Shown here: positions 1-50,835 of the stretch, piece by piece
Layout: the number at the start of each line of letters is the position of its first letter
Position numbering within the stretch: position 1 is the first letter of the stretch
Position numbers and translations under genes: made by a program
The notes under the pieces: generated by a model
What the model was told of the DNA's origin: nothing
Database searches by the model: none
What the model saw: only the letters and a program-made list of their open reading frames with translations
From: Escherichia phage phi92
Length of the DNA: 64,000 nucleotides
Reading direction: 5' to 3' (one strand)
Sequence record: NC_023693.1

Positions 1-904
1 TAAACGTTACTGTTGCACTTCCACCACGACTTGCTTGTTTTGATGCTCCAACACTTGTCTCCATCCATTTCAGATATGGTAAAAGACCACCGTGAACGAT
101 ACGGTTGTTCTTAACACCTTGTCCTGTGGCACGGGTTTGAAGGTTAACACCAATACCTGCATTATTCAATGTATATTCATGCGCAAGATAGTTAGCAATT
201 GCTAAAGATTCTGCTGTATCGTCTGCTCTAAACAGACAACAAGAAGCACTACCTTTAATCTTAGTACGCAAAGTTGTTAAATAAGGCGATGGTAAATTAA
301 TCTTAAGATCACTTACGTAGGTATATAGACGTTTAATGTCTTCTACTCTGCGATCTTTTGGTTGGATTTCCATTACCTTCATTGCTACACCAATGAATAA
401 AAACTGTGGTGATTCAAAAACAACATCATTGATCGCATCTTTCACAAGATACTTATCAACCATCTGGCGCAGTACGGAATAACCATAAGTTAGGTTTTTA
501 TCGTGATTGACAATTTTACCAATCTCAATAATTTCTTCTTCTGTATAATCCATTTTTCCCCAATAGCCTTTACTTACAGACATATTGTAGAAATCCAGGA
601 GGGAGGGGATATTGTGATATCCCCCATGAGCCTGTTTATAAATCATACCAAGAAGTAACCGACCTGCCATATCACTATATGCCTGATCTTTCTTATCAAT
701 ACATGCTGCTATCATAGCTTTATGTAAATCACGAGTAGGCACACCGTCGTAACAACGTTTAACAGCTTCGAGTTCAATTTCAGACCAATTTAATTTACCA
801 GCAGCAAACTCTGACCATTTACGAAGTTTTTCTGGATTAAATTCTTCTTTCTTGCCGTTTGTTTTTGTTACATAACGGATAGATTTGCTTAGATACTGAG
901 TCAC
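1..904 (-). CDS. nrdA: ribonucleotide reductase class Ia large subunit, N-terminal part (gene runs off the window start)
   Basis: Reverse-strand translation from GTG at 904 gives an ATP-cone (VTKTNGKKEEFNPEKLRKW) and blocks ESPQFLFIGVA, KINLPSPYLTTLRTKIKGSASCCLF, SRGGSATV that parallel E. coli NrdA; AGGAG RBS upstream. Not in ORF track because it is truncated by the window edge. Confidence 0.8.
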   Translation of the reverse strand, partial: MTQYLSKSIRYVTKTNGKKEEFNPEKLRKWSEFAAGKLNWSEIELEAVKRCYDGVPTRDLHKAMIAACIDKKDQAYSDMAGRLLLGMIYKQAHGGYHNIPSLLDFYNMSVSKGYWGKMDYTEEEIIEIGKIVNHDKNLTYGYSVLRQMVDKYLVKDAINDVVFESPQFLFIGVAMKVMEIQPKDRRVEDIKRLYTYVSDLKINLPSPYLTTLRTKIKGSASCCLFRADDTAESLAIANYLAHEYTLNNAGIGVNLQTRATGQGVKNNRIVHGGLLPYLKWMETSVGASKQASRGGSATVTF

Positions 905-915
905 TTCCTCTCCTA

Positions 916-1685: not shown

Positions 1686-2657
1686 TCACCATTTTGTATG
1701 GTTAGTCAAAAGTTGACGATGTTGAATCCAACCACAGAAGTTTCCACTCCACAAACGATGTTTACGATCCATATGTGTAATACCTTCTTCCCAAGAGGTA
1801 GGGAACGGAGGAATATTAATACCACCTTTCTGTTGTTTTAATCCTGACAAATCCATTTCTTTCATTGGCGTTGCCTGGTGTTCAAACGGAGATGCATGTA
1901 CCTTTTGTCCAGACAGCAAACGAGAATAGATATCCAATGCTTTATCTTTGGTATCATTCAATTTACGATAACTTACCTGAGCGCAACAAGAAGCTGAAAT
2001 AGCTTTTGCTTCATCTTCTGTCAACATTTTCTCGTTGGAGAAGGTTTCACCCAAGAAATAACGGATCATACCAGTTTCTGGATCTCGATCACGATTAACG
2101 TAAGGTGTATGCCATTCCCCTGGGAAAAGAAGATATGGTTCAGAAGATTCATACAGTTTTTTAATTTCTTTAGCAAGAGCCTCAATAGTAGGATCTGCAT
2201 CAGCATCTACGCGCAACCACAAGAAGTTTTCTAGCTCTGTAGTGGTTACTACAGTCTTCATACGCTGGAATGGTTCTAGTAGGCGGTTTGCAACCTGTTT
2301 ATGATAACCAGCAAGGGCAAACTCTTCTGCAAAACGTGCAGCACTTAGCGCAGCCAAGTCCCACCATTCTTTTGCAGTGTAACCTGCATCAATCAGGGCA
2401 TCGTGATCTGTGCCTTTATCTTGCATACCTGGTTGGTTAGCACCAAAACGATAAGGACGTGCTGGAGATTGCCGTACCATTTCAATTAGAGTTTTAACAG
2501 GGATAGCTCGACTTGATGCGGCATTACGAGAAAACAAACGATGCGTCATCAATTCAGAGTGAATGATTCGAGGATATTCAAGTTCAAAGGTAACAATATC
2601 CTTACCTTCAGATGTTTGAGAGTGTGCAATAATTTTTGCTGAAATAGAGTTTGTCAT
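1686..2657 (-). CDS. thyX: flavin-dependent thymidylate synthase ThyX
   Basis: ThyX signature HRLFSRNAASSRAIP (RHR ... SxR motif); AAGGAG RBS before ATG. Confidence 0.9.
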   Translation of the reverse strand: MTNSISAKIIAHSQTSEGKDIVTFELEYPRIIHSELMTHRLFSRNAASSRAIPVKTLIEMVRQSPARPYRFGANQPGMQDKGTDHDALIDAGYTAKEWWDLAALSAARFAEEFALAGYHKQVANRLLEPFQRMKTVVTTTELENFLWLRVDADADPTIEALAKEIKKLYESSEPYLLFPGEWHTPYVNRDRDPETGMIRYFLGETFSNEKMLTEDEAKAISASCCAQVSYRKLNDTKDKALDIYSRLLSGQKVHASPFEHQATPMKEMDLSGLKQQKGGINIPPFPTSWEEGITHMDRKHRLWSGNFCGWIQHRQLLTNHTKW

Positions 2658-2666
2658 TATTTCTCC

Positions 2667-3257
2667 TTAAGGTAGTAAAATACTTTCAATTTCTTCCCAC
2701 TGATTATCTAAACCAGTGATAATTACATTAGGAAGTTTCTTTAACTCTTCCAAGTATGGATCTTCGTAAATAGTGTTGAAATATATTTTCAACGTTTCAT
2801 CTGGAAATAGGACAAGATTTTCAGCCCTATCGTCAATAGTTACGTCGCAAGGTAATAAGTATTTTTCTTTTGTTGCGAAAAAGCCATTACCAGATGTTCT
2901 ACTAAAGTCCACTTTATCTAAAGATCGTGTTACGTGTCTATATTTAGAACTAAGGTGTCCACCCTTAGTGTGGCTTGCTATAGATATATTAGCGCCATTT
3001 GCAATTATACGATGAACAACATCTGTACTATTAGGTACTACTCCCATAGTATCATATAGATGTTGGTTATCCCAAAAAGAGTAAGGATCTACACCAAATT
3101 GCTTTTTAAAATCAGGAAAATATTTCGTAATATCATAATGCACAGTCTTTTGTGTCTTATCAAACTTGATATTAGATCTACTTACCGCATTTAACCAACT
3201 CAACCATTCTATATCGGCAGGAGCTATTACTAAATCCCAATCACATACTAGACGCAT
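2667..3257 (-). CDS. hypothetical protein, possibly HAD-like nucleotidase
   Basis: Start reassigned to internal ATG (MRLVCDWDLV) preceded by AGGAG and overlapping tk stop; hydrophobic-DxD-like N-terminal motif is weak evidence only. Confidence 0.4.
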   Translation of the reverse strand: MRLVCDWDLVIAPADIEWLSWLNAVSRSNIKFDKTQKTVHYDITKYFPDFKKQFGVDPYSFWDNQHLYDTMGVVPNSTDVVHRIIANGANISIASHTKGGHLSSKYRHVTRSLDKVDFSRTSGNGFFATKEKYLLPCDVTIDDRAENLVLFPDETLKIYFNTIYEDPYLEELKKLPNVIITGLDNQWEEIESILLP

Positions 3258-3804
3258 TATTTCTCCTGTTATAACATTTTCTACACATTGTTTCGTAAAT
3301 GTCTTCTCCTCCAATAACAATCTGTTCTTTAGAGTCGATAAGTCTAGCATTGAAAATAGCTTTTCTTCCACATTTACAAATGCTTTTCAATTCTGTAATT
3401 GAATCTGCTATGGCTAATAACCGTTCAGAACCTTCAAACAATTCTGTAGCAAAATCTGTTTTAAGCCCATAACAGAATACAGGAATATCGTAATTATCTA
3501 CCACATCTCCAAGAATGTCAACCATATCTTTAGTTAGGAATTGTGATTCGTCAACAAATACTGCATCTACTGGATTTTCTTTAAGCTGTGTATAAATTTC
3601 CAGCATATCTTCTTTTGTTTTAACTGGTTTTGCTTCCTCTTTAATACCTATCCTAGAAGCAATAGCACAACCAGATCTGGTATCTAAAGCTGAAGTTAAA
3701 AGAAGAACTTTCATATTTCTTTCTTTATAGTTCCAAGCTGTTTGTAGCAGGTGTGTGCTTTTACCACTGTTCATCGGACTGTATCGGAAATAAAGTTTAG
3801 CCAT
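3241..3804 (-). CDS. tk: thymidine kinase
   Basis: P-loop SPMNSGKSTHLLQ, VDESQF, C-terminal CxxC...CxxC zinc ribbon typical of Tdk; RBS present. Confidence 0.9.
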   Translation of the reverse strand: MAKLYFRYSPMNSGKSTHLLQTAWNYKERNMKVLLLTSALDTRSGCAIASRIGIKEEAKPVKTKEDMLEIYTQLKENPVDAVFVDESQFLTKDMVDILGDVVDNYDIPVFCYGLKTDFATELFEGSERLLAIADSITELKSICKCGRKAIFNARLIDSKEQIVIGGEDIYETMCRKCYNRRNNASSM

Positions 3805-3849
3805 ATTTTCTCCTCTAACGCTCCCATTTGTGGGAGCGATAATACTTTA

Positions 3850-4425
3850 TTATTTCTCTTCGTCAAGAAGAATTTTTACTATTTGTTTTCTTCGCTTACT
3901 TACTGTACTTTCTGGTGAAATTCCGCGCTTCGTTAGCCAATTTTTATCCTTTTTAGACTGGCATAAAGCTATCGCTTCCTTCTCCGCTTTTGCTTCCCTG
4001 AATGTCATATCGTGCTTGTCAGCGTAAGCCAGGATAGCGTTACACTGCTTACAAACTACACGCAGGTCGTCTTCTGTTACGTACAATAGGCGTAAAACAA
4101 AACTTGGGATATCTTCATAACAGGTTAATGTACCTGCTGCATTAATATGGTCTACTTGAAAGTCTTTCATACCTCCTGTATGTCCACACAATTCACACTT
4201 ACAATTCCAAACCTGTTTCGGTTTGCCTGTTTTCTTATCTAAAACTATATTTCCATCTTTATCCAACCTATCAGCTTTAAACCGTACAGATTGAATCTTT
4301 TTTATCTTATTCGGGTGTCTCACCCATGCTTTCCTTAAGCAACCCCTTAAATATGTATAAAAGGCTGCTTGAGTTTTCCAAGGTGTTCCATCTCCCCAAA
4401 TAACTTTAGGTTCTTTATTTTCCAA
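3850..4425 (-). CDS. HNH (beta-beta-alpha-Me) endonuclease-like protein
   Basis: CKCELCGH ... VDHINAAG ... CKQCN ... H arrangement typical of HNH nucleases. Confidence 0.55.
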   Translation of the reverse strand: MENKEPKVIWGDGTPWKTQAAFYTYLRGCLRKAWVRHPNKIKKIQSVRFKADRLDKDGNIVLDKKTGKPKQVWNCKCELCGHTGGMKDFQVDHINAAGTLTCYEDIPSFVLRLLYVTEDDLRVVCKQCNAILAYADKHDMTFREAKAEKEAIALCQSKKDKNWLTKRGISPESTVSKRRKQIVKILLDEEK

Positions 4426-4609
4426 TAGTGCTCACCTTTTTAGCTACATAATCTCCTGGTGGAATGTTATATTTAAAGAAAAGCATACGGTCTAAACCAG
4501 CTTTACACATGTTTTCTGGGATTGTGATTGTATATAGGAGTTTATCTCCACGCTTATTGTATATTTTATATACTTCACCCTCTCCGTATTGTTTACCGTG
4601 AGAAGCCAT
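4415..4609 (-). CDS. hypothetical protein (64 aa)
   Basis: small ORF overlapping neighbours by a few nt on same strand. Confidence 0.3.
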   Translation of the reverse strand: MASHGKQYGEGEVYKIYNKRGDKLLYTITIPENMCKAGLDRMLFFKYNIPPGDYVAKKVSTIGK

Positions 4610-4994
4610 CTACACTCTCCTTCAATGCTTCAATAGCATCTGCTGCTTCAATATACTTACCTTTGTACATTGCTTTTAAAGCCTTACGAACAAGATCATC
4701 GTCTGTGTATAAATCAATTAGCTGATTAGCTAACTCAATTTTTACAGGATTTTTTAAGTTAGGGTAGGCTTCATACAACATATTGTAATACTTATCACTT
4801 AATTCTTTTTCAATATGAATAACGTGAATCGCTTTGTTTAGGTTGATCACACGATCACCTTTGTTTCGACAAGCATACTTAGCTAACTTAGTGAAACAAG
4901 GAGTTGCACCAATTAGATATGCAAGTTCCAAAGGTTGCATACGCATACGTTTGTAGTGATCACCATCAATTTGAATATCCAGTGCTGTAGTCAT
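4593..4994 (-). CDS. hypothetical protein (133 aa)
   Basis: ORF followed by hairpin plus T-run terminator region at about 5005-5030. Confidence 0.4.
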   Translation of the reverse strand: MTTALDIQIDGDHYKRMRMQPLELAYLIGATPCFTKLAKYACRNKGDRVINLNKAIHVIHIEKELSDKYYNMLYEAYPNLKNPVKIELANQLIDLYTDDDLVRKALKAMYKGKYIEAADAIEALKESVDGFSR

Positions 4995-5004
4995 AAATCC
5001 TCCA

Positions 5005-5031
5005 AAAATAAAGGGGCTTTCGCCCCTTTTT
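5005..5031. terminator. bidirectional rho-independent terminator-like hairpin
   Basis: AGGGGC-TTTC-GCCCCT stem-loop flanked by A-run and T-run. Confidence 0.6.
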
Positions 5032-5032
5032 A

Positions 5033-5995
5033 TTAAATTCCAATAACAGTGTTTACACGCTTCTCTTTGCTACGCAAATTAACACGTCCACGAGACAGGC
5101 TATTACATGATGTGCATCTTAGCACTTGGAATGTACTAACCGCTGTTGTGTAAACCTTACCAGGAACAAATTCAAGGTGCTCTTTACCGCAACGAGGACA
5201 ACGAAGTTTTTCATCGTCATAGAATGCAGATACGTTAGGATGTTGTGGAATCCATGCACGAAGTTTGATGTAAAGATCTCTAAGAGAAACAACATCACCA
5301 TCGTTGTATGTTTGCATACGGAAGAAGGCATGTCTATCTCCTTCACAACATGCTTTCCACAAAGGAAAACCTTCATTATCAAGTTTAAAGTTTTCTGTAT
5401 CAAAATACAAACACATTTCTTTAAGCGCATTAGAAGGTAGTGCAAACTGCTTCTTAGCTGCCTTGAGTGTATCAATTACAACATAATGTGATGGTGGCTC
5501 CATACCGTGAAAAGCAAAACGTTGGTTAATATAAGCCTTATCAAACTTAATACCGTTGTGCGCGATCACAATATCTGCATCGTCAAGCAAGTGCCAGAGA
5601 TCTTGACATAATTCCCAATCATCTGTATGATCTATGTCAAACAAAGGGTAATTGCTAAGGTTCTTACCTTCTACTTCCCCTGTTTCTAAATCAGCAGATG
5701 AATAGGAAAGCAAGTAACCTCGACGAATAACTTGTTCAGGTGCAATAAAGGCTTTGAAACGTGAGAAGCTATACACAATCTCCGGTGCTGTCTCTACGTC
5801 AATAATTTTAATTACTGGCCCACCTTTATCTTGCGGAGCACCGCGATGTGGTGAATTTACACGAGCTAAGTAATCATTTACTGTGCTCTTCTTAGTAGAA
5901 CTTCCCAACACCTCTTGTGCAATCTTACGCGAAGAATAACCTTGTGCTTTCATAGATACAATCAAGGCTTTCTGTTCGTCTGTTAATTTACTCAA
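5033..5995 (-). CDS. DnaQ-like DEDD 3'-5' exonuclease with N-terminal HTH-like region and C-terminal zinc ribbon
   Basis: Exo motifs IIDVETAP, HNGIKFD, YNDGDVV; CPRCG ... CTSCN. Confidence 0.6.
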   Translation of the reverse strand: MSKLTDEQKALIVSMKAQGYSSRKIAQEVLGSSTKKSTVNDYLARVNSPHRGAPQDKGGPVIKIIDVETAPEIVYSFSRFKAFIAPEQVIRRGYLLSYSSADLETGEVEGKNLSNYPLFDIDHTDDWELCQDLWHLLDDADIVIAHNGIKFDKAYINQRFAFHGMEPPSHYVVIDTLKAAKKQFALPSNALKEMCLYFDTENFKLDNEGFPLWKACCEGDRHAFFRMQTYNDGDVVSLRDLYIKLRAWIPQHPNVSAFYDDEKLRCPRCGKEHLEFVPGKVYTTAVSTFQVLRCTSCNSLSRGRVNLRSKEKRVNTVIGI

Positions 5996-7026
5996 TGTTC
6001 CTCCTGCTCTGAAATATATGCTTGTAGCATACTTTCAAAAGTTGTTTCATCATTCGCCCAACGTTTCATATATACCAACTGAAAAATTGTCTCTATCCAT
6101 TCATCAGTTGTCATTTCTACTTCTTCACCATCCCAAGAAGTAAATTTAACGCCATCTGGGAACCATTCATAATACTGATCTTTAACTGTCTGAAAAAGTT
6201 CAGCCTGTGTTTTACATTTGGAAATAAGATTAAAGCAAGTAATATCTCCAAATTTAACATCGAAGTCTTGGTAAGGTCGAATACTATCTGTCTTATCACC
6301 CATTAGCATTTGATAAGCTAACCAGTAACTACCCCAACCCTTAACTTCTTTTTTCTTACCTTTTTCTACGATCCAGATATCACCGATAGATTCATCAATC
6401 AGAATAACACAAGGATTTTTATAAACACCATCCTCTTTATAAAAGTTAAAGAGTAAACTTGGTGTATGTAAGCTATCTTTGTCGATAGATGCTACAATAT
6501 GAGAAAACTTACCAGTTTCCTTGTAGGCTTTATACCCTGCATATCCATAGATTTCTAAAGCATCATCTGCCTCAATACCAGTAACAACGTCACCGTTATG
6601 TTTTTCAACTAGATAATCTTTAGTATCTGATAATTGGATTGGTCTTAAATCTGATCGTTCTGATTTATATTCTTTTGGCATTTTGAAAGAATGCCGGAAG
6701 GTTTTTCCTACCCCGATGACACCGCAATACTTTTGAAGTTTTAGGTGATCCACCATCTGGGTTATTTTTGTCTTTGCAGCTTGAAACGTAAAAGAAATAT
6801 TCTCTGGGACTATTTGAACATCTTTTATTTCAAAATCTTCCTTGGAGAACAACTTCTTACCAGCAGCTTCGCGTTGCGCGTTAAGTGCTCCTAACCATCC
6901 TCCAATGTTTTTTGAAGATTTACCCCAAAAATCTGTTCTTGTTTCAAACTCTTTTACATTACCGGAAGCCTTGTGTACAGCGTGGATTTTTCTTTGTTCT
7001 AAAGCTGAAGACGCTTGGAACGCCAC
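5992..7026 (-). CDS. hypothetical protein (344 aa) with P-loop-like GVIGVGKT segment
   Basis: ORF only; Walker-A-like motif may be coincidental. Confidence 0.35.
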   Translation of the reverse strand: MAFQASSALEQRKIHAVHKASGNVKEFETRTDFWGKSSKNIGGWLGALNAQREAAGKKLFSKEDFEIKDVQIVPENISFTFQAAKTKITQMVDHLKLQKYCGVIGVGKTFRHSFKMPKEYKSERSDLRPIQLSDTKDYLVEKHNGDVVTGIEADDALEIYGYAGYKAYKETGKFSHIVASIDKDSLHTPSLLFNFYKEDGVYKNPCVILIDESIGDIWIVEKGKKKEVKGWGSYWLAYQMLMGDKTDSIRPYQDFDVKFGDITCFNLISKCKTQAELFQTVKDQYYEWFPDGVKFTSWDGEEVEMTTDEWIETIFQLVYMKRWANDETTFESMLQAYISEQEEH

Positions 7027-9348: not shown

Positions 9349-9555
9349 TTATTTAAAATATTGTTCTAACAAAACACTAATGCGAACTACCGATTCGCCC
9401 ATATACGCCCCAGCACAGAGGAAAACAACAAATCTACAAAAATTGCAGTACCATTTGTCCACCGGAAACGAGGCTAACATTATAATTGCAATAGCAATTA
9501 ACATCATAAGAACTGTTACTAATACCATATTATCTCTTACTCTGCTGGTTCCCAA
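9349..9555 (-). CDS. small membrane protein (68 aa)
   Basis: two hydrophobic helices. Confidence 0.35.
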   Translation of the reverse strand: MGTSRVRDNMVLVTVLMMLIAIAIIMLASFPVDKWYCNFCRFVVFLCAGAYMGESVVRISVLLEQYFK

Positions 9556-10653
9556 GTACCTGGAATCATCTTACGTAAACGGACACCTGTTGGTTTTGTA
9601 GGTATTCCACCATCGGAAAATTCTTCGTACTCTATTTCAACAAATTGACCAATAAGTGTCAAAGCATTTTCTTCTTTACGATAGTTAATGGTTTCATCTG
9701 AATCCTTACGCATCAGGAATTCGACTACTTTACCATTTTCCATCTCACCTGTCAATACCCCGTCACCATTTTTATCACGTTTTGCACTTACCACTTTAAC
9801 TTCAAGCGTCTGACGTGGTTTACGTTTAATAACATCATAAGAACGTTTATCAAACTCGTAAACACCTTGTGCGTTACGATACACCACACCTTCCGCTTTC
9901 TCACGTAGAGCTTTTGCATAGAAAGCATCAAACTGCTCTTGGTTTTCAATGTACTCTGTATGTACTACACAAATAAGTTCATCTAAACCTTTATCTTCAA
10001 CAACGTCTTTTAGAGCAGCCAAAACTTCAACCCTCTTCTCAAATGGTACAGATGGCACAGGAACATCATATACATAGTATTTAAGAAGCGGAGTGTTAGC
10101 ATTATGCTTTTTCCACGCACTATTAATTTGTTGAAGGCTAAGGACACCCAAACCAGCAAAAACTTCACCGTCAAGAGGATGACCAACTACTTCTTTAATG
10201 AAGGTTGGAATTTCTTTCCAGTGAGGTGGAAGTTTATATACTTCCCCAGCTTTAGATAAACATTCACCTTGCATGTTAATCATTGAACGTAGACCATTCA
10301 ATTTATATTGTGCATAACCTGGGAACAAAACACGATCAGCATAATCTTTATAATCCTGACATTTCATGGGTGTGGAAGGAACATGGTTTTCAGCTTCCTC
10401 TTTTGTTTTATAATACCCATTCTTAAGTTGTTTTGTCCATTTGGCAAGAGCTTCTATTTCAGCTTGTTCTTCTGCTGTTGTTTCATTTGAGCGACCAATA
10501 TTTTTAGGTTCTGCTGTGTAAGATTTGCTAGTAATCTTTCCACCTAATTGACCATGAGCAACAGTTACAACACTACCTTCGGTATAGACTGACCACTGTT
10601 TAATTTTACCTGTAGAAGTTTTACCATACAATGTAGGATTAGTTTGTTTCATC
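9537..10653 (-). CDS. ATP-dependent DNA ligase
   Basis: Nucleotidyltransferase motif I KLNGLR, motif IV EGVVYR, OB-domain tail; start set at internal ATG (MKQTNP) preceded by GGAGG. Confidence 0.8.
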
Positions 10654-47763: not shown

Positions 47764-50520
47764 ATGTCAACTACAATTACTAATTTACCCGAAACATCAA
47801 AAGTTAATAGTTCTGATTACCTGGTTTTAGACCAGCCTGATAAGACTGTTAAAAGCACAGTTTCCAACTTTCTTGCTGACACTGGGGTGGTTTTAGCCAC
47901 CCAGCTAAAAGATACTTCTGGTGCTACCAAGTATCCAGAACTTCAAATGTCGCGCTGGAGAGATGAAGGTGATCCTAGAGGATGGGGAGCAGTAGGTGAC
48001 GGAGCAACAGACGATACTAATGCTATAACACAGCTTCTTGCTGCTATGCCTGATGGATGGATTATTGATGGGCGTAATCTCACTTTCAAGGTTACAACAC
48101 TACCAGATATAAGCAAGTTTAAAAACGCTGCTTTTGTTTACGAGCGTATTGTTGGACAACCCCTTACTTATGTATCTGAAGGTTTCTTCGATGGAAATCT
48201 GACAAAGATTACGGATACACCATTTTACAATGCTTGGACGCAAGATAAGACGTTTGTTTATGATAATGTTATATATGCACCATTTATGGCTGGCGAACGT
48301 CATGGTGTACAAAACCTCCATGTAGCGTGGGTTAAATCAGGAGATGATGGACAAACTTGGTCTATGCCAGAATGGTTAACTCCAATTCATCCTGATTATA
48401 CAGCAGACAAAGTTAACTATCATTGTATGAGTATGGGTGTATGTGGTAATCGCCTATATGCAGTCATCGAAACCCGTTACTTATCTAACATGCGATTGAA
48501 GAAAGCAGAACTTTGGTCACGTCCAATGCCTTATTATAGAAGGCCAACTGGAGGTATAACAATTAGTTCTGGGTCTACTACGGCGACGATTGTTTTAAAA
48601 AAGCATGGTCTTAAAGTTGGAGATGCTGTTAACTTTTCCAATTCGGGTGCAACTGGTGTATCTGGAAATATGACTGTTGCATCTGTAATTAACAAGGATA
48701 CATTTACGGTTACATTAGCAAGGGCTGCCACATCTAATATAGATAATACAGGAACTACTTGGCATTTTGGAACACGTTTCTGGGATAGCCCTTGGGAAAT
48801 TACAGAATTACCAGATGTTGCCTATTCTACTAATGCAGACTTATGTGTTACAGAAACCCATAGTTTTACAGTTATAGATGATGATAATTACACTTTTGCT
48901 GTGGGTTATCACAATGGTGATATTTCCCCAAGAAGATTAGGTATTTTGTACTTCAATAATGCTTACTCTGACCCAAGTTCTTTTACTCGTAGAACAATTA
49001 GTCAAGAATATGCTGACAATGCAGCAGAACCCTGCATTAAATATTACGATGGAATTTTATATTTAACTACCAGGGGTACTTCAACTTCTGCTGCTGGTTC
49101 TACATTAGCAATGAGTGCTGACCTTGGAGAAAACTGGAATTACTTAAGATTTCCTAACAACGTTCATCATACAAACCTACCATTTGCAAAAGTTGGTGAT
49201 TATCTTTATATCTTTGGTACAGAACGTTCATTTGGAGAGTGGGAAGGGCAAGAACTAGATAATAGATATAAAGGTACGTATCCTCGAACGTTTATGTGCA
49301 AGATTAATGTATCTTCATGGCCTGTATCTTTATCCAATGTTCAATGGTTTAATATCACTGATCAGATATATCAAGGGCATATTGTTAATTCTGCATGTGG
49401 CGTTGGTTCGGTATGTGTTAAAGATGGCTGGTTATATTATATCTTTGGAGGTGAAGATTTCTTATCTCCTTGGTCTATCGGAGATAATAGTAAAAAATTA
49501 TGGTACAAGCATGATGGTCATCCAGCCGATTTATATAGCTATAGACTAAAGATTACCGAACATGATTTTGTATCACGTGACTTCAAATATGGAGCTACGC
49601 CAAACCGTACATTGCCTGTATCTATGGGTACAGATGGGGTAAGGCATGTCTCAGCCCCTGTAACTTTTGATAATGATGTACAGATGTACTCTTTAACAGT
49701 TACTGGTCTTGAGCATGATGGGACACAACAATCTGCCGTTAGAGTAAAATTAGATGGTGATTATGGGGTTATTGCAAAAAATATCCCAATAAAAAATCCT
49801 TCTGAACAGCGACTAATCTTATGTGGAGGAGAAACTCCTTACACTACTGATGGATCGTTATTACAATTGTATGGTTCAAACCATACGTATCCAAACAGAG
49901 CAATTTTATATGCCCCAGGAGGAGCATATACACAAAATAATTTCATGCCGTACTTAGATGGACAAGTTTCATTAGGTGGTGCATCTAATAGATGGTCAGA
50001 AGTGTATGCATCTACAGGAACCATTAATACTTCAGACGGAACATTAAAAACTAAACCTACAGAGATTGAAGATATTTTACTGAAAGCATGGGAAGATATT
50101 CATGTAATCTCTTACCAATGGCTTAGTGCTGTCGCGGAGAAAGGAGATTCTGCGCGTATTCATTTTGGTGTTATCGCTCAAGATGTAAGAGATATTCTGA
50201 TTAATTATGGTTTAATGGATGAAAATAGTACTGATTGTAAGTATGCTTTTCTATGTTATGATGAATACCCTGCTATGTATGATAGTGTTGTTACGGGACA
50301 AAAAGAAATCACTTTACTTGACGATGAAGGAAATAATGTAATTGATGAAGAAGGTAATCCAGTAACAATTGTAGAAGATGTTGTAGAAACTATCGAAGTA
50401 ATTCCAGCAGGATCGCGATGGGGTATCCGCGCTGACCAAATGTTTTTTATTGAGATGGCTTATCAACGTAAAAAGTTAAAAGCTCTTGAAGAAAGACTTG
50501 CAACCCTAGAAAGTAAATAA
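47764..50520 (+). CDS. tailspike/tail fibre with beta-helix-type motif and C-terminal self-cleaving chaperone domain
   Basis: AVGDGATDDTNAI motif; C-terminal SDGTLKTKPTEIEDILLKAWEDIHVISYQW matches the intramolecular chaperone (S74-type) signature; followed by terminator. Confidence 0.7.
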   Translation: MSTTITNLPETSKVNSSDYLVLDQPDKTVKSTVSNFLADTGVVLATQLKDTSGATKYPELQMSRWRDEGDPRGWGAVGDGATDDTNAITQLLAAMPDGWIIDGRNLTFKVTTLPDISKFKNAAFVYERIVGQPLTYVSEGFFDGNLTKITDTPFYNAWTQDKTFVYDNVIYAPFMAGERHGVQNLHVAWVKSGDDGQTWSMPEWLTPIHPDYTADKVNYHCMSMGVCGNRLYAVIETRYLSNMRLKKAELWSRPMPYYRRPTGGITISSGSTTATIVLKKHGLKVGDAVNFSNSGATGVSGNMTVASVINKDTFTVTLARAATSNIDNTGTTWHFGTRFWDSPWEITELPDVAYSTNADLCVTETHSFTVIDDDNYTFAVGYHNGDISPRRLGILYFNNAYSDPSSFTRRTISQEYADNAAEPCIKYYDGILYLTTRGTSTSAAGSTLAMSADLGENWNYLRFPNNVHHTNLPFAKVGDYLYIFGTERSFGEWEGQELDNRYKGTYPRTFMCKINVSSWPVSLSNVQWFNITDQIYQGHIVNSACGVGSVCVKDGWLYYIFGGEDFLSPWSIGDNSKKLWYKHDGHPADLYSYRLKITEHDFVSRDFKYGATPNRTLPVSMGTDGVRHVSAPVTFDNDVQMYSLTVTGLEHDGTQQSAVRVKLDGDYGVIAKNIPIKNPSEQRLILCGGETPYTTDGSLLQLYGSNHTYPNRAILYAPGGAYTQNNFMPYLDGQVSLGGASNRWSEVYASTGTINTSDGTLKTKPTEIEDILLKAWEDIHVISYQWLSAVAEKGDSARIHFGVIAQDVRDILINYGLMDENSTDCKYAFLCYDEYPAMYDSVVTGQKEITLLDDEGNNVIDEEGNPVTIVEDVVETIEVIPAGSRWGIRADQMFFIEMAYQRKKLKALEERLATLESK

Positions 50521-50522
50521 TA

Positions 50523-50547
50523 CCGCTTCGGCGGTATTTCAATCTTT
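50523..50547 (+). terminator. terminator-like hairpin
   Basis: ACCGC-TTCG-GCGGT followed by T-rich tract. Confidence 0.55.
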
Positions 50548-50568
50548 ATATCTCGCTTAGAGGTACTC

Positions 50569-50835
50569 ATGGTTAAAGAGAAAAATGGTTTTAAAAAATT
50601 TATTCGAGGTATGTTTTGTACATATCCTGATAATAAAGTCAGTTCTACTAAAGTTTGGAATGCTATTGGTATGATTGTTATGTCCAGTATGTTTATTTAT
50701 TTGGGAATTGATAAAGAAATTCCTGAATGGATGGGCTGGGCTTTTGTTTTTATGATCACACCATCCAGATTAATGAAGAATTTAATAGATTTACGTTGGG
50801 GCAGATCACCTGCCCCTGATAAGGAGGATAACTAA
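50569..50835 (+). CDS. small membrane protein with two transmembrane helices (holin-like topology)
   Basis: hydrophobic segments VWNAIGMIVMSSMFIYLG and WMGWAFVFMITP. Confidence 0.35.
   Translation: MVKEKNGFKKFIRGMFCTYPDNKVSSTKVWNAIGMIVMSSMFIYLGIDKEIPEWMGWAFVFMITPSRLMKNLIDLRWGRSPAPDKEDN

What the first reader, a model, noticed from the sequence alone, without database searches (positions are those of the whole stretch)
3850..4425. Free-standing HNH nuclease gene among nucleotide-metabolism genes
An HNH-type nuclease ORF sits between tk and downstream small genes, close to thyX and nrdA, genes that often host homing endonucleases or introns in other phages. It may be a mobile homing endonuclease or a domesticated nuclease. 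No intron interrupts the neighbouring ORFs.
Basis: partly seen in the sequence, partly recalled or inferred. Interest (0 to 1): 0.35.

Follow-up and report, generated by a model that had tools for sequence, protein, structure and literature searches.

The report
Conserved core phage HNH nuclease
The HNH nuclease gene is real, but it is not a mobile homing endonuclease: every related phage carries one copy at the same place in its DNA replication genes, where it probably cuts branched DNA as endonuclease VII does in sister phages.

Summary
The ORF at 3850-4425 (minus strand, 191 aa, TTG start) is a real gene in a Justusliebigvirus (phi92-like) E. coli phage. It matches PHROG 1985 "HNH endonuclease" over its full length (E=9e-66). 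It has an invariant CxxC...DH...CxxCN motif and a confident model (pLDDT 95) whose only solved-structure match is an HNH core. The gene occurs once per genome in all 54 Justusliebigvirus and 78 Phapecoctavirus records, the same counts as the neighbouring exonuclease gene. It has diverged like its neighbours (76% vs 72-78% identity; dN/dS 0.08). By contrast, an HNH gene beside the ligase in the 99%-identical phage VEcB occurs in only 6 records and is absent from this window. The lineage-specific insert at this locus is tk, not the HNH gene. Family members lie next to or just downstream of a 5'-3' exonuclease gene in eight phage lineages outside this subfamily. The sister subfamily Vequintavirinae has the same module with a Pfam-valid endonuclease VII instead, and Justusliebigvirus has no endonuclease VII. 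The best reading is a core endonuclease acting on branched DNA (recombination and packaging). The non-mobile status is about 0.9 likely; the resolvase-like role about 0.5. This is an ordinary annotated gene with an untested functional hypothesis.

The parts
3850..4425 (-). The focal gene: a 191-aa His-Me finger (HNH) nuclease of PHROG family 1985, with TTG start and TAA stop.
   Evidence: ORF. PHROG 1985 E=9.3e-66, full length. 100% identical in protein to VEcB gp076, with 5 nucleotide differences, all synonymous. Model pLDDT 95.
4039..4197 (-). Catalytic and zinc core, residues 77-129: C77xxC80 ... D92-H93 ... (insert with helix 105-114) ... C125xxC128-N129.
   Evidence: These columns are invariant or at least 90% conserved in alignment A1. 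Predicted strands at 83-85 and 89-93 and a helix at 126-137. Structural match to the HNH core of 4h9d.
4432..4436 (-). GGTGA ribosome-binding site 6 nt upstream of the TTG start. It lies inside the 3' end of the upstream 64-aa gene, which suggests translational coupling.
   Evidence: Read directly from the sequence. The ORFs overlap at 4415-4425.
4415..4609 (-). Upstream 64-aa gene of unknown function (PHROG 4903). It is conserved with the HNH gene within Stephanstirmvirinae only.
   Evidence: 75% identical in ESCO37. No counterpart next to family members of other lineages.
4593..4994 (-). Upstream 133-aa gene of unknown function (PHROG 10946), the first gene after the terminator-like hairpin.
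5010..5029 (-). Terminator-like hairpin followed by a T-run, directly after the DnaQ-like exonuclease gene. It may mark the start of the transcription unit that holds the HNH gene.
   Evidence: This is a consensus match only.
5033..5995 (-). DnaQ-like 3'-5' exonuclease (DNA polymerase exonuclease subunit), a core gene of the module.
   Evidence: PHROG 403 1e-107 and Pfam RNase_H_2. Same record counts as the HNH gene, 54 and 78.
5992..7026 (-). 5'-3' exonuclease (FEN or T7 gp6-like). This is the gene that family members follow in eight phage lineages outside this subfamily.
   Evidence: PHROG 107 4e-54. Linkage shown.
3241..3804 (-). Thymidine kinase, a genus-specific insertion between the HNH gene and the NT5C-like gene.
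   Evidence: Pfam TK 1.2e-54. 54 records at >=99% identity and none at 60-80%. Absent at this position in Phapecoctavirus.
3819..3838 (-). 8-bp GC-rich hairpin in the 45-nt spacer between the HNH gene and tk, with no T-run after it.
   Evidence: centroid -14.2 kcal/mol, z=-2.5.
2667..3257 (-). NT5C-like 5'-nucleotidase-like gene. Coordinates follow the VEcB gp074 annotation; the longest ORF extends to 3371.
   Evidence: Pfam NT5C 8.8e-5, just below cut-off. PHROG 420..
1686..2657 (-). ThyX-type thymidylate synthase.
1..905 (-). 5' part of nrdA, cut off by the window edge.
   Evidence: Mapping onto VEcB gp070 at 99% identity.

Best explanation
The gene encodes a small zinc-stabilised His-Me finger (HNH, beta-beta-alpha-metal) DNA endonuclease. 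It is a fixed, single-copy, vertically inherited part of the phage's replication, recombination and nucleotide-metabolism gene block, and it is not a homing endonuclease. I propose that it does the job that endonuclease VII does in related phages. That job is to cut branched DNA (Holliday junctions and Y-branches) that arises during recombination-dependent replication, so that concatemers can be packaged. It probably acts alongside the linked 5'-3' exonuclease, and the pair may also help break down host DNA, as T7 gene 3 and gene 6 do. What is shown: the gene is real, it has the HNH core, it is universally conserved, syntenic and under purifying selection, it is linked to the exonuclease gene across lineages, and its distribution is complementary to endonuclease VII. 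What is inferred: the substrate (branched DNA), any dimerisation, and the timing of its action.
For: Non-mobility. (1) tblastn finds the gene in 54 records at >=95% identity and 78 at 60-80%. The adjacent DnaQ-like exonuclease gives the same 54 and 78. There are 763 matching places in 762 records, so the gene is single copy. The family profile hits only this ORF in the whole VEcB genome. (2) Gene order is the same in Phapecoctavirus. Protein identity for the HNH gene is 75.7%, against 77.8% for the 5'-3' exonuclease, 73.8% for the DnaQ-like exonuclease and 71.8% for thyX. dN/dS is 0.084 against 0.07-0.12 for those neighbours, and all 5 nucleotide differences from VEcB are synonymous. (3) Contrast with a mobile gene: VEcB gp086 (PHROG 374 HNH beside the ligase) is found at >=99% in only 6 records, representing 4 phages. 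Apart from 2 records in the 60-80% band, its other listed hits are <=44% identical, in unrelated phages, and often multi-copy. Both gp086 and gp247 are missing from this window as indels. (4) Catalytic and zinc-binding residues are invariant down to 36% identity. The best 150 of 1133 family cluster representatives are mostly 170-220 aa long, show a single matched stretch (one shows two) and have no long fusion proteins among them. Role. (5) Family members lie immediately after, or within about 1.5 kb downstream of, a 5'-3' exonuclease gene in ICP1, Pakpunavirus, two Chaseviridae genera, Acinetobacter KissB, VnaP, VpV262 and a 90-kb metagenomic contig. (6) The sister subfamily Vequintavirinae (phage naam) has the orthologous module: 5'-3' exonuclease 38.5% identical, DnaQ-like exonuclease 39.9%, NT5C-like 33%, thyX 52%. 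It carries a Pfam-valid Endonuclease_7 gene (31.6 bits) between the two exonucleases and no family member. That endonuclease VII is itself single copy and conserved across the subfamily. Autographiviridae phage Villemi has RNaseH, then EndoVII (58 bits), then the DnaQ-like exonuclease. (7) No endonuclease VII homologue is detectable anywhere in VEcB or in this window. No RuvC, RusA, T7 endonuclease I or EndoVII is annotated in VEcB or in the 50 kb read of the 53.7-kb Chaseviridae phage SA91KD, where curators labelled the family member 'endonuclease VII'. (8) The Stephanstirmvirinae proteins carry the D-H ... CxxC-N arrangement that T4 endonuclease VII has at D40-H41 ... C58xxC61-N62 (the T4 sequence was verified).
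Against: There is no biochemical or genetic evidence for any member of this family. Literature searches found none. Similarity to endonuclease VII is not significant. Pfam Endonuclease_7 scores 14.4 bits against a 23.6 cut-off. hhalign probability is 1-2%. The family HMM does not detect EndoVII proteins. EndoVII is not among the 50 best Foldseek PDB matches. The best structural match is a terminase-associated nicking HNH, not a resolvase. About 60% of VEcB genes have unknown function, so another resolvase could be hidden among them. One example is gp200, annotated 'endonuclease' without family support. The positional equivalence is imperfect in this window: the HNH gene lies after the DnaQ-like exonuclease and two small genes, not between the two exonucleases. 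Deep co-evolution with the exonuclease is not demonstrated. The Mantel correlation is r=0.37, p=0.06 once the close pairs are removed. Barth et al. 2023 (PMC10448857) list ICP1 gp179, apparently the ICP1 homologue, among HNH-type putative homing endonucleases on domain grounds.
Confidence: 0.5

Rival explanations
1. It is an active, mobile free-standing homing endonuclease. It would cut HNH-less alleles of a neighbouring gene (tk, thyX, nrdA or the exonuclease) and copy itself in by repair.
For: It has an HNH catalytic core. It sits among nucleotide-metabolism genes that host homing endonucleases in this and other phages. Some GenBank records label homologues 'homing endonuclease HNH'. ICP1 gp179 is listed as a putative HNH homing endonuclease in PMC10448857.
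Against: It is present in every one of 132 Stephanstirmvirinae records, once each and at the same position. Its divergence and dN/dS match core neighbours. Pfam detects no NUMOD, AP2, IENR or HNH_3 module. The family has a uniform short length. The truly sporadic HNH genes of the same genomes belong to other PHROG families, 374, 953 and 2255.
Confidence: 0.04
2. It is a nucleotide-scavenging nuclease. It nicks or cuts host chromosomal DNA early in infection so that the linked 5'-3' exonuclease can degrade it to dNMPs. These would feed the adjacent NT5C-like, tk, thyX and RNR enzymes.
For: It is embedded between exonuclease genes and nucleotide-metabolism genes here and in KissB, ICP1, Pakpunavirus and L015. 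From established knowledge, T7 endonuclease I (gene 3) and exonuclease (gene 6) jointly degrade host DNA as well as processing branches, so this role can coexist with the best explanation.
Against: There is no direct evidence. In Chaseviridae the gene sits between the exonuclease and the ligase in a purely replicative block. The complementary distribution with endonuclease VII points to branch processing rather than bulk degradation.
Confidence: 0.2
3. It is a packaging accessory HNH like HK97 gp74 or Gme HNH. It would stimulate or complement terminase cleavage at genome ends.
For: The best solved-structure match is Gme HNH (4h9d), a member of the terminase and cos-associated nicking HNH group (PMC3592412 seen). 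In Chaseviridae the gene lies 2.5-3 kb upstream of terL.
Against: Such genes lie directly next to terminase or cos (PMC3592412 abstract). In VEcB terL is about 21 kb away from the HNH gene (34.6 kb against 55.9 kb). In ICP1 and Pakpunavirus no terminase gene is annotated within 5 kb either side of the family member. The structural match covers only the 59-residue core at E=0.1.
Confidence: 0.08
4. It is a site-specific nicking enzyme. It would introduce programmed single-strand interruptions into phage DNA, or prime replication or recombination at defined sites.
For: Many small HNH proteins are nickases (PMC3592412). The nearest structural match is a nicking enzyme.
Against: I found no report of localised nicks in Stephanstirmvirinae genomes. 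No sequence-reading domain is detected. No repeated candidate target was examined.
Confidence: 0.05

Closest known systems
T4 endonuclease VII (gp49; Pfam PF02945 Endonuclease_7), the packaging and recombination endonuclease
   Same: It belongs to the same His-Me finger superfamily. It has the same arrangement of four zinc-binding cysteines around a D-H dyad and a CxxC-N metal ligand. It is a small, single-copy core gene. It occupies the same neighbourhood (next to the 5'-3' exonuclease or RNaseH gene and the DnaQ-like exonuclease gene) in related modules, where true EndoVII sits in Vequintavirinae and Villemi.
   Different: No significant sequence or profile similarity. This protein has a 75-residue N-terminal helical and beta-hairpin domain with a conserved W...YLRGxxR...P.K motif. 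It has a 31-residue insert between DH and the second CxxC, and a different C-terminal helical region. Distant family members end the motif in CxxCH rather than CxxCN. The domain-swapped dimer and junction cleavage of EndoVII are untested here.
Free-standing HNH homing endonucleases of phages (T4 Mob proteins, I-HmuI-like, ICP1 HNH-3 and IPA-HNH, PHROG 374 and 953)
   Same: It has an HNH catalytic core. It is a free-standing ORF among replication and nucleotide-metabolism genes.
   Different: It is not sporadic, not multi-copy and not linked to an empty-site polymorphism. It has no detectable modular DNA-binding domain. It belongs to a different PHROG family from the sporadic HNH genes of the same genomes.
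Terminase or cos-associated HNH nucleases (HK97 gp74, Gme HNH 4h9d)
   Same: It is a small zinc-containing HNH that serves the phage rather than itself. Gme HNH is the closest solved structure for the core.
   Different: It is not adjacent to terminase. The match is limited to 59 residues at E=0.1. The flanking domains are different.
T7 endonuclease I (gene 3) together with exonuclease (gene 6)
   Same: This is a functional analogy: a branch-cutting endonuclease genetically linked to a 5'-3' exonuclease in a T7-type replication module. It is clearest in Chaseviridae, where the order is primase-helicase, DNA polymerase, exonuclease, family member, ligase.
   Different: The fold is unrelated, because T7 endonuclease I is a PD-(D/E)xK type nuclease (established knowledge). 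The analogy rests on gene context only.

Membership tests
HNH / His-Me finger nuclease superfamily | A beta-beta-alpha-metal core with a catalytic His at the end of the first strand pair and an Asn or His metal ligand in the helix | tested here: met
   D92-H93 and N129 are invariant. Predicted strands at 83-85 and 89-93 and a helix at 126-137. Foldseek match to the HNH core of 4h9d at probability 0.99. PHROG 1985 E=9e-66.
HNH / His-Me finger nuclease superfamily | A score above the curated cut-off of a Pfam HNH-clan model | tested here: not met
   PF01844 scores 16.0 bits against 21.4, PF14279 15.5 against 27.5 and PF02945 14.4 against 23.6. Three lineage homologues tested separately (ICP1, Pakpunavirus, Chaseviridae) also fall below cut-off, although a few metagenomic homologues carry a precomputed PF01844 or PF14279 annotation. 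The family is too divergent for the current Pfam models.
HNH / His-Me finger nuclease superfamily | Two CxxC pairs forming a structural zinc site around the active site | tested here: met
   C77xxC80 is invariant and C125xxC128 is at least 90% conserved. Metal binding itself cannot be tested here.
Homing endonuclease gene (mobile, free-standing) | Sporadic presence and absence among close relatives, with clean empty sites | tested here: not met
   54 of 54 and 78 of 78 records carry it, matching the neighbouring core gene. The positive control gp086 is in 6 of 54 records and is missing from this window as an indel.
Homing endonuclease gene (mobile, free-standing) | Divergence or phylogeny that disagrees with flanking genes, or relaxed selection | tested here: not met
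   Identity is 75.7% against 72-78% for neighbours, and dN/dS is 0.084 against 0.07-0.12. At deep divergence the test is inconclusive.
Homing endonuclease gene (mobile, free-standing) | A modular sequence-specific DNA-binding domain (NUMOD, IENR1, AP2, zinc finger) joined to the nuclease | tested here: not met
   Pfam detects no such domain. Family members are uniformly about 170-220 aa with one matched stretch. The N- and C-terminal regions could still bind DNA.
Homing endonuclease gene (mobile, free-standing) | Cleavage of a specific target site in the allele that lacks the gene | not testable with these tools
   No allele lacking the gene exists in the collections searched. This needs biochemistry.
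Recombination endonuclease VII (PF02945) | A significant match to the family profile | tested here: not met
   14.4 bits against a 23.6 cut-off. hhalign probability 1-2%. The family HMM gives E=0.1-0.4 on three true EndoVII proteins, which themselves pass Pfam or match the solved T4 EndoVII structures.
Recombination endonuclease VII (PF02945) | Four cysteines binding zinc, a D-H catalytic dyad and an Asn ligand directly after the second CxxC | tested here: met
   C77, C80, D92, H93, C125, C128 and N129 correspond to T4 C23, C26, D40, H41, C58, C61 and N62. Distant members of the family have His in place of N129.
Recombination endonuclease VII (PF02945) | A domain-swapped homodimer that resolves four-way junctions | not testable with these tools
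   Only a monomer could be modelled. There is no biochemistry.
Terminase-associated HNH (HK97 gp74 type) | A gene directly adjacent to the terminase genes or cos site | tested here: not met
   terL is about 21 kb away from the HNH gene in VEcB.

The most novel reading that the evidence does not exclude
PHROG 1985 may be a previously unrecognised class of phage junction-resolving or debranching enzyme. It is a His-Me finger family distinct from endonuclease VII, with about 1,100 clusters at 50% identity. On this reading it replaces endonuclease VII non-orthologously within a conserved module (5'-3' exonuclease plus DnaQ-like exonuclease) in at least ten phage lineages, among them the Stephanstirmvirinae (Justusliebigvirus and Phapecoctavirus), Pakpunavirus, ICP1, Chaseviridae and Acinetobacter and Vibrio myoviruses.
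Probability: 0.4. Interest if true: 0.5.

Novelty: new member of a known kind. Interest (0 to 1): 0.22.

Why it matters
As a finding it is ordinary. The gene is already annotated 'HNH endonuclease' in dozens of near-identical genomes, and the homing reading is wrong. It is still useful in two ways. First, it is a clean example showing that 'HNH endonuclease' annotations in phage genomes mix selfish mobile genes with core enzymes, and that distribution counts separate the two within minutes. That matters for phage engineering and for therapy-genome curation, because deleting this gene as 'selfish' would probably cripple the phage. Second, if the family really is the debranching nuclease of these phages, it would fill the missing resolvase slot in several well-studied groups (ICP1, PAK_P1-like Pseudomonas phages, phi92-like coliphages). 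It would also add a new structure-selective nuclease scaffold.

Tried and rejected
- **PDB by sequence:** nothing was found with the single protein, and only noise with the family profile.
- **Foldseek against the PDB:** this gave only a 59-residue HNH core match, and endonuclease VII was not among the top 50.
- **Foldseek against BFVD:** this returned only family members and other phage HNH proteins, with no functional labels.
- **Protein comparison with the alignment:** the tool failed. It was replaced by local hhalign, which showed no significant relation to T4 EndoVII or to a three-sequence EndoVII alignment.
- **NCBIfam and PADLOC:** NCBIfam gave nothing above cut-off and PADLOC gave no hits, so there is no link to defence systems.
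- **Literature:** no functional study of this family turned up. The only mention is ICP1 gp179, listed among HNH-type putative homing endonucleases in PMC10448857, whose supplements gave no further detail.
- **Conserved partner protein:** the two upstream small genes have no counterparts next to family members in other lineages.
- **Deep co-phylogeny with the 5'-3' exonuclease:** the Mantel correlation is driven by two close pairs (r=0.84). It falls to r=0.37, p=0.06 without them, so I do not use it as evidence.
- **Promoter scan:** there were fewer sigma-70-like matches than in shuffled sequence, so no promoter is claimed.
- **Rejected readings:** an intron- or intein-associated endonuclease is rejected because the neighbouring ORFs are intact. 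A defence or anti-defence nuclease is rejected for lack of any hit, and because the context is replication genes.
Full report
**What the window is.** A 3.5-kb stretch around the finding is 98-99.6% identical to 53 phage genomes of the genus Justusliebigvirus (phi92-like, subfamily Stephanstirmvirinae), for example phages inny, alia and VEcB. Window position 1 corresponds to about VEcB position 30,746, and the window is collinear with VEcB at 97-99% identity apart from a few indels.

- The ORF runs from 3850 to 4425 on the minus strand and encodes 191 aa.
- It starts with TTG, has a GGTGA ribosome-binding site 6 nt upstream, and overlaps the stop of the preceding 64-aa gene by 11 nt.
- It matches PHROG 1985 'HNH endonuclease' end to end at E=9e-66.
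- No Pfam model reaches its cut-off: HNH scores 16.0 bits against 21.4, and Endonuclease_7 scores 14.4 against 23.6.
- Thirty-four homologues, down to 36% identity, keep C77, C80, D92, H93 and N129 invariant and C125 and C128 nearly so. This gives the motif CxxC...DH...CxxCN.
- The AlphaFold model is confident, with pLDDT 95.3.
- Its only meaningful solved-structure match is the HNH core of Gme HNH, 4h9d (probability 0.99, E=0.1, 59 columns).

**It is not a mobile element.** That is what I find.

| Gene (tblastn against 50,697 phage records) | Records at >=95% identity | Records at 60-80% identity |
|---|---|---|
| Focal HNH gene | 54 | 78 |
| Adjacent DnaQ-like exonuclease | 54 | 78 |
| tk | 54 | 0 |
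| VEcB gp086 (HNH beside the ligase; query from VEcB, where it occurs at >=99%) | 6 | 2 |

- The HNH gene has 763 matching places in 762 records, so it is single copy. The family profile hits only this ORF in the whole 147.7-kb VEcB genome.
- In Phapecoctavirus ESCO37 the gene order is the same. Protein identities for the twelve shared genes run from 55% to 87%. The HNH gene is at 75.7%, next to the 5'-3' exonuclease at 77.8%, the DnaQ-like exonuclease at 73.8% and thyX at 71.8%.
- dN/dS is 0.084 for the HNH gene and 0.07-0.12 for those neighbours. dS is saturated, so these values are approximate. The five nucleotide differences from VEcB are all synonymous.
- The variable gene at this locus is tk. 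Phapecoctavirus has no tk between the HNH gene and the NT5C-like gene.

**A positive control from the same genomes.** VEcB is annotated with four other HNH genes:
- gp069 between nrdB and nrdA
- gp086 beside the ligase
- gp247 between tRNA-Gln and tRNA-Pro
- gp202 beside DNA polymerase I

These belong to other PHROG families (374, 953, 2255). gp086 occurs at >=99% identity in only 6 records, which represent 4 phages. Two further records fall in the 60-80% band. Its other listed hits are <=44% identical, in unrelated Pseudomonas, Pectobacterium, Staphylococcus and Acinetobacter phages, often in several copies. gp086 and gp247 are absent from this window as indels at 9365-9574 and 21904-21911. 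This is how a homing endonuclease looks in this group, and the focal gene looks nothing like it.

**What it may do.** Two lines of context evidence point the same way.

The first is linkage to a 5'-3' exonuclease gene. The family member follows that gene, or lies just downstream, in eight distantly related phage lineages outside this subfamily:

| Lineage | Gene context |
|---|---|
| ICP1 | gp176 exonuclease, two genes, then gp179 |
| Pakpunavirus B55 | exonuclease then family member, overlapping |
| Chaseviridae SA91KD and Berlingot | exonuclease, family member, ligase |
| Acinetobacter KissB | exonuclease, hypothetical gene, family member, DnaQ-like exonuclease, MazG, thymidylate synthase, RNR |
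| Vibrio VnaP and VpV262 | exonuclease upstream (six small genes between in VnaP; three genes, one a different HNH, in VpV262) |
| 90-kb metagenomic contig L015 | 5'-3' exonuclease then family member, overlapping, with DnaQ-like exonuclease, NT5C and thymidylate synthase further on |

The second is complementary distribution with endonuclease VII. The sister subfamily Vequintavirinae (phage naam) has the orthologous module: 5'-3' exonuclease 38.5% identical, DnaQ-like exonuclease 39.9%, NT5C-like 33%, thyX 52%. It holds no family member. Instead it has a gene annotated 'packaging and recombination endonuclease' that passes the Pfam Endonuclease_7 cut-off (31.6 bits) between the two exonucleases. 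That gene is itself single copy and conserved across the subfamily. The Autographiviridae phage Villemi has RNaseH, then EndoVII (58.3 bits), then the DnaQ-like exonuclease.

Conversely, no endonuclease VII homologue is detectable in VEcB or in this window. No resolvase of any known type is annotated in VEcB or in the 50 kb read of the 53.7-kb genome of SA91KD, where curators named the family member 'endonuclease VII'. A large virulent phage with recombination-linked replication is expected to need a debranching nuclease before packaging. This follows from established knowledge of T4 gp49 and T7 gp3. The focal gene is the only visible candidate.

The Stephanstirmvirinae proteins also carry the same catalytic arrangement as T4 endonuclease VII: D-H, then CxxC immediately followed by Asn (the T4 sequence was checked against 1e7d and 1en7).

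**Limits of the functional inference.**
- It rests on context, not on homology or experiment. The family is not detectably related to endonuclease VII beyond the shared superfamily pattern.
- The closest solved structure is a nicking HNH of the terminase-associated group.
- Many genes in these phages are uncharacterised and could hide another resolvase.
- In this window the HNH gene lies after the DnaQ-like exonuclease rather than between the two exonucleases.
- A Mantel test of HNH against exonuclease distances is significant only because of two close pairs (r=0.84, p=4e-4). Without them it gives r=0.37, p=0.06. One metagenomic lineage (L015) has an HNH protein 49% identical to this one but a very distant exonuclease. 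Some ancient shuffling of module parts is therefore likely.
- A published survey lists ICP1 gp179 among HNH-type putative homing endonucleases on domain grounds (PMC10448857). My Pfam scan of the ICP1 protein shows no HNH_3 domain.

**Family properties.** A profile search of 1.84 billion representative proteins finds 1133 clusters at E<=1e-3 and 474 at E<=1e-10. Most of the best 150 are 170-220 aa long, and all but one show a single matched stretch. Besides the HNH core, members share an N-terminal motif (W...[YW][LV]R[GS]x[LI]R...W...P.K) and a C-terminal helical region. Distant members end the core in CxxCH instead of CxxCN, and VnaP has lost the cysteines. No defence-system model matches.

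**Verdict.**
The 'conserved nuclease working for the phage' reading is supported.
- I put the non-mobile core status at about 0.9.
- I put the specific endonuclease VII-like debranching role at about 0.5. Host-DNA degradation together with the exonuclease is a compatible second role, at about 0.2 as the main role.
- The gene is already annotated in many genomes, so the finding itself is of low interest. The hypothesis that PHROG 1985 is an unrecognised resolvase family is testable and moderately interesting.

Noticed in passing
window 3241-3804 (tk) and the junction at 3805-3866: tk is the genus-specific insertion at this locus. All 54 Justusliebigvirus records have it at >=99% identity and no Phapecoctavirus has it. 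The nearest other relatives are about 52% identical, in T4-like and jumbo phages. An 8-bp GC hairpin (3819-3838, z=-2.5) and a sigma-70-like match (3866..3839) lie at the HNH/tk junction.
   Followed up: partly
window 9365-9574, against VEcB 40110-40945: This phage lacks the 209-aa HNH gene (VEcB gp086, PHROG 374) that 4 of its close relatives carry beside the ligase gene. This is a real presence/absence polymorphism of a homing-type endonuclease.
   Followed up: yes
window 21398-21911 (tRNA cluster): tRNA-Gln and tRNA-Pro are 7 nt apart here, whereas VEcB has a 119-aa HNH gene (gp247) between them. Conversely, the window has about 430 bp between tRNA-Gly and tRNA-Gln, against about 100 bp in VEcB.
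   Followed up: partly
window 20508-20583: ARAGORN calls a tRNA with an irregular 2-nt anticodon '(tt)'. VEcB annotates tRNA-Lys-TTT at the corresponding place. This may be an unusual anticodon loop or a prediction artefact.
   Followed up: no
window 47987-50595: No megablast match to VEcB 79548-81645, inside the tail-fibre gene block. This is probably a swap of a receptor-binding cassette.
   Followed up: no
window 5010-5029 (minus strand): A strong terminator-like hairpin (AAAGGGGC-GAAA-GCCCCTTT followed by a T-run) lies directly after the DnaQ-like exonuclease gene. This suggests the HNH gene begins a new transcription unit together with the two small upstream genes.
   Followed up: no
GenBank MG065639, MG065645, MG065656, MG065689 (hits H29-H32): Four records named 'Campylobacter phage' with host C. 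jejuni are 98.4% identical to this E. coli phage locus. Similar 'Campylobacter phage' records also match Vequintavirus EndoVII. The host labels are probably wrong or the samples contaminated.
   Followed up: no
L017 4265-5543 and 10047 onwards (metagenomic contig): A Pfam HNH_3 gene (247 aa) is inserted directly upstream of the family member, overlapping its start. The ribonucleotide reductase in the same locus carries an intein with a LAGLIDADG domain. True mobile endonucleases therefore do target this module.
   Followed up: no
VEcB 117814-120383 and 134063-135052 (outside the window): The anaerobic RNR large subunit (nrdD) is annotated in two pieces (gp168, gp166) with gp167 between them. 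This may be an intron or an endonuclease insertion. gp136 combines CapR and T5orf172 domains, as the ICP1-type homing endonucleases do.
   Followed up: no
L003 5534-5722 (ICP1 gp180) and L009 3991-4194 (VnaP_066): The small protein immediately downstream of the family member looks homologous between ICP1 and VnaP (shared ...KLLSAQ.VYD...Y.IYDIL.A.DV...EIDYVQ...). It has no counterpart in this window.
   Followed up: no
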